Shown here piece by piece: positions 13,574 to 39,372 of a stretch of DNA of 40,815 bases. The notes under the pieces are model-generated. The model saw only the letters and a program-made list of their open reading frames with translations. It had not been told where the DNA came from and made no database searches. The position numbers and the translations under genes were made by a program. Location of the stretch: UHGV virus genome UHGV-0360510; one strand, given 5' to 3'. Each line of letters begins with the position of its first letter. The first letter of the stretch is position 1. Source of the DNA: a virus.

Positions 13574-14833
13574 ATGGCAACCGCAAAGAAACTCCCATCC
13601 GGCTCATGGCGCTGTCTGGCCTACAGTCACACGGAACGAATATACGATGAAAAGACTAAAAAGTGGAAAAATAAACGGATCTATGAATCCTTTACCGATG
13701 ACGACCCCAGCCCAGCAGGCCGAAAACGGGCCGAGCTGGCTGCCGCACAGTTTCAGGCAACCAAGACACCTGACAGGATCCGGAAACGGCAGGATTATGG
13801 AAAACTCACCTTATCCCAGGCAATTGACAAATATATTGAATCCAGGGAGAACCTGAACCGGTCTCCCACTACACTCCAGGACTACCGCTGTATCCAGAAG
13901 AATGCATTTCCGGATCTGATGGATACCCCTATCAAAGACATAGATATAACGATCCTTCAGGAAGCTCTGAGTGCAGAAGCCCGCAGACCGACCAACAGCC
14001 CTGCCAAGAAGGGAAAACCCATATCTGCCAAGCGCGTACGTAATGAATGGGGGCTAATCCGCCCTGTGCTGCATAAATACGGTGTAAATAAGATTGACTT
14101 TGAACAAATAGAACTTCCTACTGTTACTCCCAGATTGGTGGAACTTCCACCGGCAAAAACCGTCCTAAACCTCATCAAGGGAACTGATATTGAATTACCG
14201 GTGTTATTAGCTACCTGGCTTTCATTCTCCATGTCTGAGGTCCGTGGCTTGACAAAATCCAAATCCATCTCAGGAAACTATATCACAATCCATGAGGTAA
14301 TCGTGGACATTAACAATAAACCGGTACGCAAAGAGTTAGCTAAGAACCCAACCCGCAACCGGCGCTTACAGATCCCGCCATACATACAGAATCTGATTGA
14401 TCAGGTAGATGGTGATGTGCTTGTACCGATGAGCGGCCGAGCACTGTATCATCGTTGGATTAAGCTGCAGCATGATAATGGGCTATCCCCTATTACCTTC
14501 CATGATCTCCGGCATCTCAACGCTTCTGTTATGGCCCTTCTTCGGATCCCAGACAAGTACGCCCAGGAACGTGGTGGATGGAAAACCGATCAGGTAATGA
14601 AAAAGGTCTATACGCAGACATTCCCCGATGAGCGTGTGCGTGTTGATAATACCATAGATAACTACTTTGAAAGCATTGTCAATCCAGAGAAATCCTCTCC
14701 AAGTGACAAAGAAAATCTATCGCCGGAAGAGCTCATAAAACTCCTTAAAGAACGCAATCCGGATGGCTGGTATAAGGTTTTGGAAAATGCTATGCAACAC
14801 GAAATGCAACACGACACGAAAAAAGCCCGGTAA
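13574..14833 (+). CDS. int: Tyrosine-type site-specific integrase
   Basis: Box I R (SEVRGLT), HDLRH, GGWKT...VYT catalytic Tyr. RBS AAGGAGG. The stop lies in the loop of a GC hairpin. Confidence 0.9.
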   Translation: MATAKKLPSGSWRCLAYSHTERIYDEKTKKWKNKRIYESFTDDDPSPAGRKRAELAAAQFQATKTPDRIRKRQDYGKLTLSQAIDKYIESRENLNRSPTTLQDYRCIQKNAFPDLMDTPIKDIDITILQEALSAEARRPTNSPAKKGKPISAKRVRNEWGLIRPVLHKYGVNKIDFEQIELPTVTPRLVELPPAKTVLNLIKGTDIELPVLLATWLSFSMSEVRGLTKSKSISGNYITIHEVIVDINNKPVRKELAKNPTRNRRLQIPPYIQNLIDQVDGDVLVPMSGRALYHRWIKLQHDNGLSPITFHDLRHLNASVMALLRIPDKYAQERGGWKTDQVMKKVYTQTFPDERVRVDNTIDNYFESIVNPEKSSPSDKENLSPEELIKLLKERNPDGWYKVLENAMQHEMQHDTKKAR

Positions 14834-15057: not shown

Positions 15058-15924
15058 TTACTCTTCCGCCAGCCCCCGCCACCGCAGCGCCCCGTCCTGA
15101 CCCGGAGTAAGGACAACCGGCTCCATAATCATCCGCCCCCGATCGTCCATGATGTACCACTTGCCGCCTATGGTCTGCTGACCTTTGACCATAGCCCCGT
15201 CAGCGCCCAGATAATACCAGTGATCCTGATACTTATACCAGGTATCATACACCATCATTCCTGCTCCGTCAAACCAGTACCACTTTCCATCATCCTGATA
15301 CCAGTCATTTTTTACTGGTTCCCCTGTATTACCCAGATAGTACCGCCAGCCGCCATCTTCCTGCTGCCAGCCGGCTTTCTTTTCCTTGGCCTGGACAATC
15401 GACCAGTCCGGCAGCCCGTAGCCAAGAATTTTCCCATAAGACCGGCTGTAAGCCTTCCGGCACACCCCGCCGCCGTTTTCAATCACGCCGGATGCACCGG
15501 ACGTATTACCCTCAATGGTCTTGATCCGCGTTGCCGTCACCTCTGTAACGATCCCTGTATGATAGGCTCTCTGGCCGTTGGTAAAGAAGATCACTGCCCC
15601 AGGCTCCGGCACCGCGGCCCACCGGCCTGCCTTTTTAAACTGTTTGACCCCTGTGGGGCAATAATGGTACAGGCTGCCGCCCAGAAGTTTCTTAGCAACC
15701 TCCAGACCAAATGCCTGCACAAATACCTCTGATACGAACATGGCACACCAGGGCTGGGCCTGCAGATTCTGACCGGTGTGTGTCTTATAGTCCCTGGCAA
15801 AGCAGGTGAAATTGCCGCTGCCGGCATTGGCCGTAAAATCATCCAGCTGGGCGTTGCTTTTCTTTTCCAGATAGCCGTCCCAATGGGCGGCCTGATCAAT
15901 GAGTTTCTTTACTGCGTTTTCCAT
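15058..15924 (-). CDS. Endolysin: CHAP-domain peptidase/amidase with C-terminal cell-wall-binding (choline-binding-like) repeats. The track ORF extends to 15969.
   Basis: CHAP Cys/His region (QPWCAMFVSEV...AVIFF...YHTGIV). Repeats GGWRYYLG, GKWYWFDG, DHWYYLGADG, GKWYIMDD. TTGGAGGCAAAGAC-ATG at 15924. Confidence 0.85.
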   Translation of the reverse strand: MENAVKKLIDQAAHWDGYLEKKSNAQLDDFTANAGSGNFTCFARDYKTHTGQNLQAQPWCAMFVSEVFVQAFGLEVAKKLLGGSLYHYCPTGVKQFKKAGRWAAVPEPGAVIFFTNGQRAYHTGIVTEVTATRIKTIEGNTSGASGVIENGGGVCRKAYSRSYGKILGYGLPDWSIVQAKEKKAGWQQEDGGWRYYLGNTGEPVKNDWYQDDGKWYWFDGAGMMVYDTWYKYQDHWYYLGADGAMVKGQQTIGGKWYIMDDRGRMIMEPVVLTPGQDGALRWRGLAEE

Positions 15925-15987
15925 ATGTCTTTGCCTCCAAATAAAAAAGCCCGGTACAAAACCGGACAAAAATCATTTTCAGGTATC

Positions 15988-16016
15988 TTGCATTTAAAAT
16001 CTGCATATGCTATAAT
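15988..16016 (+). promoter_or_regulatory. Near-consensus sigma70 promoter (TTGCAT-17-TATAAT) driving a short plus-strand RNA
   Basis: -35 TTGCAT at 15988-15993, 17-nt spacer, -10 TATAAT at 16011-16016. The transcript would end at the 16059-16100 terminator. Confidence 0.45.
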
Positions 16017-16022
16017 GCCAGT

Positions 16023-16100
16023 AGGCAAACGATAGGATGTTTCCAAATGAAACAAACGAACCCCCAGAAGCTCACACCTTCTGGGGGTTCTTCCGATTTT
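16023..16100 (+). ncRNA. Candidate ~75-nt antisense sRNA (type I antitoxin-like), ending at a shared bidirectional terminator
   Basis: Promoter as above. A 12-bp GC-rich stem (AACCCCCAGAAG / CTTCTGGGGGTT, loop CTCACAC) followed by a T-rich tract. No RBS-supported ORF. Confidence 0.35.
16059..16089. terminator. Strong bidirectional hairpin between the convergent small-peptide gene and the sRNA
   Basis: 12-bp stem, 7-nt loop. T-rich on both strands after the stem (CTTCCGATTTTAT on plus; TCGTTTGTTTCATTT on minus). Confidence 0.5.
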
Positions 16101-16132
16101 ATACAGTCAGGCATCTGTAGGCTGGTTACCGA

Positions 16133-16219
16133 TTACTTGTCGCCGTCCAACCATTTGATGATGTAGTGGCAGGCTACACCAGCCGCAACAGCGACGATAA
16201 ACGATAGAATGTGATCCAA
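16133..16219 (-). CDS. Candidate type I toxin-like hydrophobic peptide (28 aa, TTG start): MDHILSFIVAVAAGVACHYIIKWLDGDK
   Basis: GGGAGGTG lies 6 nt upstream of the TTG. Single predicted TM plus a charged C-terminal tail. Own promoter (extended -10 TGCTATAAT at 16268-16276, weak -35 TTGCGG). The leader CGCCUCC can pair with the SD GGAGGUG. The 3' end is convergent with the sRNA. Confidence 0.3.
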   Translation of the reverse strand: MDHILSFIVAVAAGVACHYIIKWLDGDK

Positions 16220-16358
16220 ATGAAACACCTCCCTTCTGTCACCAGATTCGGAGGCGGTAACGTTAGCATTATAGCACAGCAGCAATTATGCCGCAATCAA
16301 AATATAGACCTCAGGAATCCCCTGGGCCTGTCTGCGTTGCGACGTCGCACAGCTCTAC

Positions 16359-16823
16359 TTATTCTTTCTTTATTCCCTCTTCTGGGGTATCCACTACCGT
16401 TTCAATCTTTTTCTTTATAAAACGTAATACCGGACTTAATACAGGAATTGCCACTCCTGTCGCCTCACAATTCTCCGTAATACTGATCAACTCATTGATT
16501 ACCAGCCAGGACGCCACCATCGCGGAGAACAGCAGCGGAAACGCCATTTCAATATGTAAGTTGGCTGCTACGTAGGAAATCATACAGTCTATTCCGTATC
16601 CCACAAAAATCAGTATGTACATCATTACTTTTTTCACAATACCCGCAAATGACTTTTCGCTTGTAATCTTTTCCCCATTCACCTTTGATGCTGCCATTCC
16701 TGTAAAGTAGTCAATGATATTGCAGGGGATCAGCAAAGCTAACGGGATTGCCAGCACTCCAAAGAAACTGAAAAACGCTCCGATAGCTGCACTTATTGTG
16801 TATTCGATTGCTTTAGCTTTCAT
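16359..16823 (-). CDS. Holin (Phage_holin_4_1 / TcdE-like family)
   Basis: Three or four TM helices with the conserved NELISITEN-like segment; positioned just upstream of the lysin. Confidence 0.7.
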   Translation of the reverse strand: MKAKAIEYTISAAIGAFFSFFGVLAIPLALLIPCNIIDYFTGMAASKVNGEKITSEKSFAGIVKKVMMYILIFVGYGIDCMISYVAANLHIEMAFPLLFSAMVASWLVINELISITENCEATGVAIPVLSPVLRFIKKKIETVVDTPEEGIKKE

Positions 16824-38948: not shown

Positions 38949-39162
38949 CAGGCTCACCTCGCTTTCTTCAATCAAAAAGAGGCAGCCAGAGCCGTCTCGA
39001 TTCGTCGTTTTTGGTAAAAGAAAAGAGATAGCCGGGGCTACCTCCAATCAATATCTTGTATTTATCCACACATTATCCACAATATGTTGACAAAAAAGAG
39101 AGCCCCCGCCAAAGCAGGGACCCATACAAAGGAGAAATTACAAAATGTTGTATCCATCCAAA

Positions 39163-39235
39163 CGGATCCTACAGGAATCGAACCTGTGACATGGTGGTTA
39201 ACAACCACCTGCTCTGCCAGCTGAGCTAAGGATCC
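39163..39235 (-). tRNA. tRNA-Asn (anticodon GUU), phage-encoded; CCA not encoded
   Basis: GGATCCT-TA-GCTCAGCTGGCAGAGC-A-GGTGG-TTGTTAA-CCACC-ATGTC-ACAGG-TTCGATT-CCTGT-AGGATCC-G. Cloverleaf with 7-bp acceptor, anticodon loop TTGTTAA. Confidence 0.85.
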
Positions 39236-39372
39236 AATAAAATGGGGGGCGGCCCAGCTGTTACGCCGGGCCATGTACTCAATGAAGAGGTATTGGTCGA
39301 AAGCCGTCGGCTGTATGCCTTTGGCTTCGGATTTTATTATAAAACGAATTTAACGAATAAAACGAATTATTT

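What the first reader, a model, noticed from the sequence alone, without database searches (positions are those of the whole stretch)
15988..16296. Type I toxin-antitoxin-like locus between holin and endolysin
Between the holin stop (16359) and the endolysin RBS there is a ~390-bp island that is not part of the late operon. On the minus strand an extended -10 promoter (TGCTATAAT, 16268-16276) with a weak -35 (TTGCGG) drives a 28-aa peptide, MDHILSFIVAVAAGVACHYIIKWLDGDK (16133-16219). It has a TTG start, GGGAGGTG as SD, one TM helix and a charged tail, like Fst/TxpA/Ldr-class toxins. Its 5' leader contains CGCCUCC, which can pair with the SD GGAGGUG and sequester it, as in many type I toxin mRNAs. 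On the plus strand a near-consensus promoter (TTGCAT-17-TATAAT, 15988-16016) starts a ~75-nt transcript with no credible ORF. Both transcripts end at the same strong bidirectional hairpin (12-bp stem, 16059-16089), so their 3' ends overlap convergently. This matches the fst/RNAII and bsrG/SR4 architecture known from Gram-positive plasmids and prophages. A further hairpin + T-run (15951-15965, minus strand) separates the island from the endolysin gene. This would be an undescribed peptide/sRNA pair lodged inside a phage lysis cassette.
Basis: partly seen in the sequence, partly recalled or inferred. Interest (0 to 1): 0.8.

Follow-up and report, generated by a model that had tools for sequence, protein, structure and literature searches.

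The report
Fst-like toxin/antisense-RNA cassette in phage lysis module
The gap between this phage's holin and endolysin genes holds a complete small-toxin/antisense-RNA "addiction" cassette of the known Fst/par type; it had not been annotated, yet relatives occur in at least 120 gut phage contigs and 223 plasmids.

Summary
Window 15988-16296 holds two convergent genes. A ~215-nt minus-strand mRNA encodes a 28-aa membrane peptide. A ~75-80-nt plus-strand sRNA is the second gene. They share a 13-bp bidirectional terminator.

The sRNA 5' part is a direct-repeat copy of the toxin's translation start region, so it is antisense to the start codon and codons 1-7. This is the DRa/DRb layout of the Enterococcus par (Fst/RNA II) system.

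The toxin mRNA matches Rfam RF02442 (SpF66) over its full length (40.9 bits, E 6e-8, gathering score 42). SpF66 is the mRNA of the validated pneumococcal Fst-A/B toxins.

Relatives occur in at least 120 viral contigs, 223 plasmids, inoviruses and at least 120 bacterial species. Among 64 non-redundant loci the repeat sequence differs, but both copies change together. A long-range 5' helix shows compensatory changes in 6 of 7 pairs.

In related phages the same holin-lysin junction carries other accessory cargo instead, so the cassette is a moron and not a lysis gene.

It is a new, divergent member of a known kind. Expression and toxicity are untested.

The parts
16291..16296 (-). Toxin promoter -35-like hexamer TTGCGG (3 of 6 matches to TTGACA), 17 nt upstream of the -10.
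   Evidence: Read from the sequence. Not flagged by the consensus scan.
16268..16276 (-). Toxin promoter extended -10, TGCTATAAT.
   Evidence: inverted repeat I2. An equivalent TGnTAnAAT lies at the same distance from the leader in 62 of 64 non-redundant homologues.
16047..16262 (-). Toxin mRNA (the RNA I equivalent), about 215 nt, from the predicted start to the end of the terminator U-run.
   Evidence: Full-length match (model positions 1-239) to Rfam RF02442 SpF66 at 16047-16261, 40.9 bits, E 6e-8. Minimum free energy -78.2 kcal/mol, z -3.69.
16255..16261 (-). 5' strand (GUUACCG) of the long-range upstream helix. It can alternatively pair locally with GGUGAC at 16238-16243.
   Evidence: Present in the minimum-free-energy fold. 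Across 61 loci it is 89% paired, with compensatory changes in 6 of 7 pairs; shuffles give 76.5 +/- 1.1%.
16125..16131 (-). 3' strand (CGGUAAC) of the upstream helix, starting 2 nt after the stop codon.
16250..16256 (-). Anti-SD sequence CGCCUCC in the 5' leader.
   Evidence: Pairs with the SD in the minimum-free-energy and centroid folds. It is 82% paired over 61 loci, against 45-63% when the partner is shifted; one pair covaries, with 25 C-G and 16 U-A.
16226..16233 (-). Shine-Dalgarno sequence GGGAGGUG.
   Evidence: GGAGG or GGGGG conserved in all homologues.
16133..16219 (-). Toxin ORF of 28 aa, MDHILSFIVAVAAGVACHYIIKWLDGDK, with a UUG start.
   Evidence: Identical or near-identical peptides occur in many viral contigs. 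W-L-D is invariant in the 15-member alignment. Variation by codon position is coding-like: entropy 0.94, 0.53 and 1.13 for positions 1, 2 and 3.
16199..16227 (-). Target of the antisense RNA on the toxin mRNA. It spans the SD-to-start spacer, the start codon and codons 1-7. These are the toxin-side copies of the two direct repeats.
16058..16090 (.). Shared bidirectional terminator hairpin, with a 13-bp stem (8 G-C pairs) and a 7-nt loop.
   Evidence: In 61 of 63 homologues the segment between the stop codon and the repeat folds at -10 kcal/mol or lower.
16023..16102 (+). Antitoxin sRNA (the RNA II equivalent), about 75-80 nt. Both ends are predicted, not mapped.
   Evidence: Fold -29.3 kcal/mol, z -4.84. 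It overlaps the toxin mRNA only at the terminator and does not overlap the ORF.
16027..16054 (+). sRNA-side copies of the direct repeats (16027-16040 and 16042-16054). As RNA they are complementary to the toxin start region.
   Evidence: Predicted duplex -38.7 kcal/mol, against shuffles at -16.8 +/- 2.7 with a minimum of -27.8. The cognate repeat is the best match in 60 of 64 loci.
15988..16016 (+). sRNA promoter: TTGCAT, a 17-nt spacer, then TGCTATAAT.
   Evidence: In 61 of 63 homologues a -10 element lies mostly 10-11 nt beyond the repeat on the opposite strand; 52 are perfect TATAAT and 55 have the TGn extension.
15949..15967 (-). Terminator-like hairpin with T-run directly upstream of the endolysin SD. 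It is phage backbone, not part of the cassette.
   Evidence: Equivalent hairpins lie in front of the lysin in L139 and L141, which have no toxin-antitoxin cassette at this site.

Best explanation
This is a self-contained type I toxin-antitoxin cassette of the par (Fst/RNA II) type. A temperate phage of gut Firmicutes carries it as accessory cargo in the variable slot between its holin and endolysin genes.

How it most likely works:
1. The minus-strand promoter makes a stable ~215-nt mRNA for a 28-aa membrane peptide.
2. Within that mRNA the 5' end pairs with a sequence just past the stop codon (the upstream helix).
3. An anti-SD sequence pairs with the ribosome-binding site, which keeps free mRNA poorly translated.
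4. The convergent plus-strand promoter makes a ~75-80-nt RNA. Its 5' part is complementary to the spacer, the UUG start codon and the first seven codons. Its terminator hairpin is complementary to the toxin terminator.
5. Binding of this RNA blocks translation.
6. If the phage DNA is lost, or antitoxin synthesis stops, the mRNA would be translated and the peptide would damage the membrane.

The most likely benefit to the phage is stabilisation of the prophage (post-segregational killing). Exclusion of competing elements is the second possibility.

Shown here: the anatomy, the homology, the co-variation of the pairing partners, the conservation of the promoters, and the cargo nature of the site.

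Inferred from the par and pneumococcal Fst literature: transcription, toxicity, relative RNA stabilities and biological role.
For: Homology
- The toxin mRNA matches Rfam RF02442 SpF66 over its full length.
- Streptococcal, enterococcal and other relatives of the window locus score from 31 to 116 bits on the same model, so the scores form a continuum.
- SpF66 is F66, which was detected by Northern blot and lies between SP2168 and SP2169. This is the pneumococcal Fst-A/B locus, where a 65-75-nt antisense RNA and toxicity in E. coli were demonstrated.
- The model consensus itself encodes M..ADVIAG..CKWLDGKE. That fits the DXXXG pneumococcal clade of the Fst/Ldr family described in the review.

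par architecture (as defined)
- The two promoters are convergent, the terminator is bidirectional, and the antisense RNA does not overlap the ORF.
- There are two direct repeats across the start region.
- Among 64 loci with unique start regions, the cognate repeat scores 19.2 on average against 9.0 for non-cognate pairs, and it is the best match in 60 of 64.
- The predicted duplex is -38.7 kcal/mol, against -16.8 for shuffles.
- The upstream helix has compensatory changes in 6 of 7 pairs.
- The SD-sequestering helix and the upstream helix both appear in the minimum-free-energy fold.
- The sRNA -10 element is conserved in 61 of 63 loci.

Peptide
- W-L-D is invariant between the helix and the charged tail. 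This matches the Fst/Ldr signature.

Autonomy and cargo status
- The same module occurs on small plasmids, Enterococcus conjugative plasmids, inoviruses and a streptococcal satellite.
- Phages with a 71-99% identical holin carry other genes at the same junction: nothing, a Tad2-like gene, or DUF4406 with a HicB-like gene.
Against: - No protein model recognises the window peptide. Pfam Fst_toxin gives no hit to it or to 14 relatives.
- NCBIfam type_I_tox_Fst reaches only 12.3 bits, against a cutoff of 26, and only on a streptococcal relative.
- The P/D/S/T-XXX-G motif, which is common in Fst toxins and essential in Fst of pAD1, reads A-V-A-A-G in the window peptide.
- The Rfam score of 40.9 bits is just under the gathering score of 42.
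- The consensus scan flags neither promoter, and the plus-strand terminator tail is weak.
- There are no expression, toxicity or stability data for this locus or for any member of its clostridial clade.
Confidence: 0.85

Rival explanations
1. The peptide is a lysis accessory, such as a membrane depolariser or a holin modulator, whose synthesis the antisense RNA times. On this reading the cassette is a functional part of the lysis programme and not an addiction or defence module.
For: - The toxin gene is co-oriented with the holin and the lysin. No strong terminator lies between the holin stop and the toxin gene, so late transcripts should read into it.
- The family is repeatedly found beside lysis genes of unrelated families. 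Among 95 distinct upstream neighbours are Amidase_2 (7), Hol44 holin (6), VanY/M15 (6), Amidase_3 (4), holin_4_1 (3), r1t holin (2), glucosaminidase (2) and GH25. Among 78 downstream neighbours are choline-binding or CHAP lysins and phage lysozyme.
- Type I toxins have been likened to holins in the literature.
Against: - The same module, with its own promoters and terminator, sits on plasmids, on non-lytic inoviruses, next to the integrase of a satellite, and in the pneumococcal chromosome. None of these places has lysis genes.
- Close relatives of this phage lyse without it, or carry anti-defence or other toxin-antitoxin cargo at the same junction.
- The ends of lysis modules are general cargo slots in temperate phages. 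This rests on established knowledge and was not tested here.
Confidence: 0.08
2. The locus is a small membrane protein gene with a cis-antisense regulator, but the peptide is not toxic. It would then be a regulated small protein and not a toxin-antitoxin pair.
For: - No toxicity data exist for this clade.
- The PXXXG motif needed for toxicity of Fst from pAD1 is absent.
- Protein models for known toxins do not recognise the peptide.
Against: - The whole regulatory apparatus of par is conserved with co-variation: SD sequestration, the stabilising 5' helix, and an antisense RNA across the start codon. Tight multi-layer repression of translation is typical of toxic products.
- The homologous pneumococcal Fst-B is toxic when expressed in E. 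coli.
- The module is enriched on mobile elements.
Confidence: 0.05
3. The features are a chance ORF plus ordinary intergenic signals, namely the holin terminator and the lysin promoter region.
For: - The ORF is only 28 codons long and starts with TTG.
- The consensus scan does not call the promoters.
Against: - The Rfam full-length match has E 6e-8.
- More than 100 loci in viral contigs encode the same peptide family with the same RNA architecture.
- Substitutions follow a coding-like pattern.
- The repeats and the helix show locus-specific co-variation.
Confidence: 0.02

Closest known systems
par of Enterococcus faecalis plasmid pAD1 (Fst toxin mRNA RNA I and antitoxin RNA II)
   Same: - Convergent promoters and a shared bidirectional terminator.
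- The antisense RNA does not overlap the ORF. It pairs with the start region through two direct repeats transcribed in opposite directions.
- A 5' stem-loop sequesters the SD, and a 5' upstream helix is present.
- RNA sizes are about 210 nt and about 65-80 nt.
- The peptide is about 30 aa, with one helix and a charged tail.
   Different: - The peptide sequences are not detectably similar by HMM.
- Fst of pAD1 has PXXXG and a Val where the window peptide has the family Trp.
- The YUNR-type loop motif lies in the sRNA terminator loop here (CUCA in CUCACAC, read from the sequence), whereas in par it is in RNA I.
- The host element is a phage lysis module, not a conjugative plasmid.
Streptococcus pneumoniae Fst-A/Fst-B locus (Rfam RF02442 SpF66; also called F66, srn502 and Spd_sr109)
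   Same: - It is the closest family with curated and experimental support. The mRNA aligns end to end, from the leader through the ORF to the terminator.
- The peptide C-terminal core CKWLDG resembles IKWLDG in the window.
- A 65-75-nt antisense RNA was detected at the pneumococcal locus, and the toxin was toxic in E. coli.
   Different: - The window scores 40.9 bits, just under the gathering score of 42.
- The pneumococcal peptides carry a DXXXG segment, and alignment A1 shows a 4-residue insertion in the streptococcal relative that the window clade lacks.
- The pneumococcal locus is chromosomal, lies in tandem, and sits between fcsR and adcA rather than in a phage.
Type I toxin-antitoxin systems of Clostridioides difficile prophages (for example CD0977.1-RCd11 in phiCD630-1; NCBIfam NF047374)
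   Same: - These are type I modules carried by prophages of Clostridia, and they have been shown to help maintain the element (abstract listed).
- Three plasmid relatives of the window peptide show weak N-terminal similarity to this model, with best E-value 2.7e-4 (four members in the alignment scan).
   Different: - The scores are far below the curated cutoff (21 bits against 60) and cover only the hydrophobic helix. The window peptide itself does not hit.
- The C. difficile toxins are about 50 aa with lysine-rich tails and show no homology to previously studied toxin-antitoxin systems of other bacteria.
bsrG/SR4 and txpA/ratA of Bacillus subtilis prophage-like elements
   Same: - They are type I modules on prophage-derived DNA.
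- The toxin mRNA and the antisense RNA are convergent.
   Different: - In those families the antisense RNA overlaps the 3' part of the mRNA including the ORF, and it acts through that overlap.
- Here the overlap is only the terminator, and the pairing lies at the 5' start region.

Membership tests
Fst/Ldr superfamily of type I toxins (peptide level) | A short peptide with one hydrophobic helix followed by a highly charged C-terminus. | tested here: met
   The 28-aa peptide is MDHILSFIVAVAAGVACHYII-KWLDGDK. All 15 aligned relatives share this layout.
Fst/Ldr superfamily of type I toxins (peptide level) | A conserved tryptophan between the helix and the charged tail. | tested here: met
   W23 is invariant in alignment A1. 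It is present in all peptides extracted from the viral contigs, but there it was part of the search pattern. The signature is described.
Fst/Ldr superfamily of type I toxins (peptide level) | A P/D/S/T-XXX-G(C) motif inside the helix. It is present in the majority of members and is essential in Fst of pAD1. | tested here: not met
   The window reads A10-V-A-A-G14. Relatives have S or T at the same position (L001 T, L002 S, L003 S, L010 T), while others lack the Gly. The review says "majority", not all.
Fst/Ldr superfamily of type I toxins (peptide level) | Recognition by curated protein models (Pfam PF13955 Fst_toxin; NCBIfam NF033608 type_I_tox_Fst). | tested here: not met
   Pfam gives no hit for any of the 15 peptides. 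NF033608 reaches only 12.3 bits, against a cutoff of 26, on the Javan542 peptide, and does not hit the window peptide. Power is low for peptides of 28-37 aa.
par-type (Fst/RNA II) locus architecture | Convergent promoters and a shared bidirectional intrinsic terminator, with an antisense RNA on the 3' side that does not overlap the ORF. | tested here: met
   The layout is conserved in 61 of 63 non-redundant homologues.
par-type (Fst/RNA II) locus architecture | Two direct repeats (DRa and DRb), transcribed in opposite directions, that make the antitoxin complementary to the toxin start region. | tested here: met
   The repeats are 16027-16040/16199-16212 and 16042-16054/16215-16227. They are cognate-specific in 60 of 64 loci. 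The predicted duplex is -38.7 kcal/mol.
par-type (Fst/RNA II) locus architecture | A 5' stem-loop that sequesters the Shine-Dalgarno sequence. | tested here: met
   CGCCUCC pairs with GGAGGUG in the minimum-free-energy and centroid folds. Pairing is 82% over 61 loci, against 45-63% for shifted partners. Co-variation is limited to one pair, and the value is only slightly above shuffles (80.0 +/- 0.6). This is a prediction only.
par-type (Fst/RNA II) locus architecture | A 5' upstream helix formed between the 5' end and a distal part of the mRNA. | tested here: met
   GUUACCG pairs with CGGUAAC. Pairing is 89%, with compensatory changes in 6 of 7 pairs, above all 300 shuffles, and the helix is in the minimum-free-energy fold. 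The distal strand lies after the stop codon or in the last codons. Its exact position in par of pAD1 was not compared.
par-type (Fst/RNA II) locus architecture | Both RNAs are expressed, the toxin is toxic, and the antitoxin RNA protects. | not testable with these tools
   No transcriptome or experiment is available for this phage. Such evidence exists only for the pneumococcal homologue.
Rfam RF02442 SpF66_sRNA | A score at or above the curated gathering threshold of 42 bits. | tested here: not met
   The window scores 40.9 bits, E 6e-8, over the full model. Relatives found with the window peptide score 116, 115, 103, 94, 60 and 47 bits (above threshold) and 31-40 bits (below). The window is therefore a divergent homologue just outside the curated boundary.

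The most novel reading that the evidence does not exclude
The cassette may be wired into the lysis programme. It lies on the same strand as the holin and the lysin, and it places a strong terminator between them. Any late transcript that reaches the lysin must therefore read through the toxin ORF, and it would be fully complementary to the sRNA across 16023-16102.

The sRNA could then gate lysin expression, for example through duplex-dependent cleavage or termination. Late read-through could also flood the cell with toxin mRNA that lacks the native 5' end, and therefore lacks the upstream helix. That would make the peptide a phage-timed membrane depolariser.

The recurrent placement of this one toxin-antitoxin family inside or next to lysis cassettes with at least six unrelated lysin or holin families would then be adaptive, and not just use of a convenient cargo slot.

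The 5' end can also form two mutually exclusive helices, a local hairpin and the long-range helix, and both covary. This hints at a co-transcriptional folding switch, which I do not recall being described for par (my own recollection, not checked here).
Probability: 0.1. Interest if true: 0.75.

Novelty: new member of a known kind. Interest (0 to 1): 0.4.

Why it matters
- It adds a large, unannotated clade to the Fst/par family. The clade is centred on Lachnospiraceae and other gut Firmicutes and on their phages, inoviruses and small plasmids. Earlier searches reported only isolated Fst-like sequences in Clostridiales.
- The clade supplies dozens of natural variants in which the antisense pairing and an mRNA helix co-vary. 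This is useful for understanding how specificity between cognate pairs evolves.
- It shows that an RNA listed in Rfam as a pneumococcal "sRNA" is a toxin mRNA family with a much wider range.
- For phage genomics, the holin-lysin junction in this phage group is a cargo slot for toxin-antitoxin and anti-defence genes.
- For gene callers and phage annotation pipelines, it is a concrete example of a functional module that is invisible to protein-based annotation.

Tried and rejected
- Pfam and NCBIfam scans of the peptide and 14 relatives gave no usable family assignment.
- The weak CD_typeI_toxin hits cover only the hydrophobic helix and are far below the cutoff, so I rejected them as evidence of membership.
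- A literature search for "SpF66" returned only papers on a malaria vaccine. The supplements of Fozo et al. are not held.
- RNAalifold on a global MAFFT alignment of 61 toxin mRNAs did not recover the 5' helices, because variable ORF length misaligns them. I counted pairs on named columns instead.
- One tblastn hit (L013) lies inside a large membrane protein and was discarded.
- I rejected the idea that the 15949-15967 hairpin bounds the cassette, because relatives without the cassette have it too.
- I found no lysin-specific promoter between the shared terminator and the lysin, either by eye or with the scan.
- I did not run structure prediction. A 28-aa single helix would give no discriminating fold match.
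Full report
**Setting.** The window is a temperate phage genome written in circular order.
- Structural genes run on the minus strand from about 39.8 kb down to a holin at 16359-16823 (Pfam Phage_holin_4_1, E 7e-24).
- An endolysin follows at 15058-15924, with a CHAP domain and choline-binding repeats.
- An integrase on the plus strand at 13574-14833 converges on the lysin.
- The finding lies in the 434-bp gap between the holin stop and the lysin start.

**Check of the observation.**
- The ORF at 16133-16219(-) encodes MDHILSFIVAVAAGVACHYIIKWLDGDK. It has a TTG start 8 nt after GGGAGGTG.
- TGCTATAAT occurs on both strands, at 16268-16276(-) and 16008-16016(+). Each has a TTGC-type hexamer 17 nt upstream.
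- A perfect 13-bp hairpin at 16058-16090 lies between the two genes.
- The consensus scan calls neither promoter, because each -35 matches only 3 of 6 positions. It calls the hairpin a terminator on the minus strand only.
- The two genes are transcribed in opposite directions, so these repeats make the sRNA 5' part antisense to the toxin's SD-to-start spacer, start codon and first seven codons.

**Folding of the two RNAs.**
- The predicted sRNA-to-start-region duplex is -38.7 kcal/mol, against -16.8 +/- 2.7 for shuffled sRNA.
- The 216-nt toxin RNA folds at -78.2 kcal/mol (z -3.69).
- Its minimum-free-energy structure contains CGCCUCC paired to GGAGGUG. It also contains the 5' end paired to GGUAAC just after the stop codon.
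- The sRNA folds with z -4.84.

**Identity.** An Rfam scan aligned 16047-16261(-) end to end with RF02442 SpF66 (40.9 bits, gathering score 42, E 6e-8).
- The model consensus itself carries an SD and an ORF ending in CKWLDGKE.
- SpF66 is F66 of Mann et al. It is 239 nt long, was detected by Northern blot, and lies between SP2168 and SP2169 in TIGR4.
- Its neighbour F67/srn503 is annotated in PneumoBrowse2 as an Fst-family addiction toxin.
- Fozo et al. placed the tandem Fst-A/Fst-B homologues between fcsR and adcA. They detected a 65-75-nt antisense RNA and showed toxicity in E. coli.
- The Fst/Ldr signature is a conserved Trp between the helix and a charged tail. One pneumococcal clade has DXXXG. 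The SpF66 consensus peptide fits this clade.

**Relatives.** tblastn with the 28-aa peptide found modules in several kinds of element:
- three rodent-gut inoviruses;
- human-gut phage scaffolds;
- a Streptococcus satellite;
- small plasmids of Waltera, Mediterraneibacter, Mogibacterium and uncultured gut bacteria;
- a C. perfringens plasmid;
- 197 Enterococcus plasmid records.

All of these loci were unannotated except the Javan542 satellite and bajarodino virus 29, where a CDS called "hypothetical protein" lies under the match; in bajarodino virus 68 an annotated "DNA binding protein" CDS reaches into the match.

The genomes are mostly Lachnospiraceae, Oscillospiraceae, Veillonella, Selenomonas and Anaerococcus. 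By my own arithmetic the pattern carries about 37 bits, so few of these matches should be chance. Several viral contigs encode exactly the window peptide. On the same Rfam model, relatives score from 31 to 116 bits.

**Comparative tests of the mechanism.**
- Among 64 loci with different start regions, the local alignment score between a locus's start region and its own downstream segment averages 19.2. For non-cognate pairs it averages 9.0 (99th percentile 16). The cognate pair is best in 60 of 64. The repeat sequence therefore drifts, but both copies move together.
- In 61 of 63 loci a -10 element lies on the opposite strand, mostly 10-11 nt beyond the repeat. Of these, 52 are TATAAT and 55 have the TGn extension. 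In 61 of 63 a stable hairpin lies between the stop codon and the repeat.
- The 5' helix is 89% paired over 61 sequences, with compensatory changes in 6 of 7 pairs. Examples are A-U 27 against G-C 25, and C-G 29 against U-A 22. Shuffles give 76.5 +/- 1.1%.
- The SD-sequestering helix is 82% paired. It shows little co-variation, as expected for two conserved strands.
- A local hairpin, GUUACC with GGUGAC, also covaries. It competes with the long-range helix for the same 5' strand.
- Variation by codon position is coding-like.

**Membership.** All architectural features of par listed in the review and in T1TAdb are met. At the peptide level, the helix, the Trp and the charged tail are met. The P/D/S/T-XXX-G motif is not met in this peptide, and no protein HMM recognises it. 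I therefore file the locus as a divergent homologue of the Fst/par family, closest to the pneumococcal SpF66 clade. The protein-model criteria and the Rfam threshold are narrowly or clearly missed.

**Why it sits here.** Phages whose holin is 71-99% identical differ at this junction:
- L137 has the same cassette as the window.
- L139 has the holin followed directly by the lysin. A KWLD-coding motif lies just downstream of its lysin, but I did not examine that locus further.
- L141 has a Tad2-like anti-Thoeris gene.
- L143 has DUF4406 and a HicB-like gene.

The junction is therefore a cargo slot. A hairpin with T-run in front of the lysin SD is present whatever the cargo, so it is backbone. A palindrome, TGCGACGTCGCA, is also present whatever the cargo, but only in the relatives with a similar lysin (L137, L139, L141, L143); L138 has a variant and L140 and L142 lack it.

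Across viral contigs, holins or lysins of many unrelated families are frequent immediate neighbours of the cassette, and those matched by homology to the window's lysis genes are always co-oriented with it. This fits cargo insertion at the ends of lysis modules. It leaves open a functional link to lysis, which I rate at about 0.1.

**Verdict.** It is a new member of a known kind. Transcription, toxicity and biological role remain inferences from the par and pneumococcal work.

Noticed in passing
window 16338-16349: A perfect 12-nt palindrome, TGCGACGTCGCA, lies just after the holin stop. The same motif (TTGCGACGTCGCAAC) is conserved at the holin-lysin junction in related phages L137, L139, L141 and L143. 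It sits either before or after the cargo gene. It may be a protein-binding or recombination site that marks the cargo slot.
   Followed up: partly
window 15949-15967 (-); L139 and L141 upstream of the lysin: A terminator-like hairpin with a T-run lies immediately before the endolysin Shine-Dalgarno sequence. It is conserved as a feature in relatives with and without cargo. The lysin would then depend on terminator read-through or on an unrecognised promoter. No promoter was found between 16047 and 15970.
   Followed up: partly
L141:2404-2916; L143:3552-3872 and L143:3943-4425: In phages with an approximately 83-84% identical holin, the same junction carries other cargo. L141 has a Tad2-like (Thoeris anti-defence) protein, E 1.7e-23. 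L143 has a DUF4406 protein and an opposite-strand HicB-like antitoxin.
   Followed up: yes
L001 (PQ006100.1), L010 (PQ006183.1), L011 (PQ006166.1): Three 7-8.5-kb inoviruses from Peromyscus faeces carry a complete homologous toxin/sRNA module. In PQ006100.1 the end of an annotated "DNA binding protein" CDS reaches into the module (the match lies at L001 1501-1593 and the CDS ends at 1506), on the strand opposite the toxin gene.
   Followed up: partly
L050 (10502-10952), L119 (1049-1511, toxin-strand coordinates), L095 (5691-6397), L146: Some viral contigs and one Lachnospiraceae genome carry two copies of the cassette in tandem, about 360-500 nt apart. The two copies encode different peptides and start regions. 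This resembles the tandem Fst-A/Fst-B arrangement in S. pneumoniae.
   Followed up: no
window 16238-16261 (-): The 5' strand GUUACC can pair locally with GGUGAC (16238-16243) or distally with GGUAAC after the stop codon. Both alternatives show compensatory changes across homologues. This suggests a folding switch during or after transcription.
   Followed up: partly
Rfam RF02442: The family is typed in Rfam as "Gene; sRNA". However, its consensus contains an SD and a 32-codon ORF for an Fst-type peptide. It is therefore a toxin mRNA and not a non-coding RNA.
   Followed up: yes
plasmid hits (for example L008 NZ_CP042291.1 and L009 NZ_KP342511.1): 197 Enterococcus plasmid records, mostly conjugative, carry an unannotated relative (M..FDFVFAI.AEVAAHYICKWLDC.IAKKDSKPTR) with the same RNA architecture. 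L009 scores 59.7 bits on SpF66.
   Followed up: partly
upstream neighbours: Three distinct upstream neighbours of the cassette in viral contigs are IS605 OrfB / Cas12f-like TnpB proteins.
   Followed up: no
window 39162-39236 (-): A tRNA-Asn (GTT) gene lies near the start of the structural gene block.
   Followed up: no
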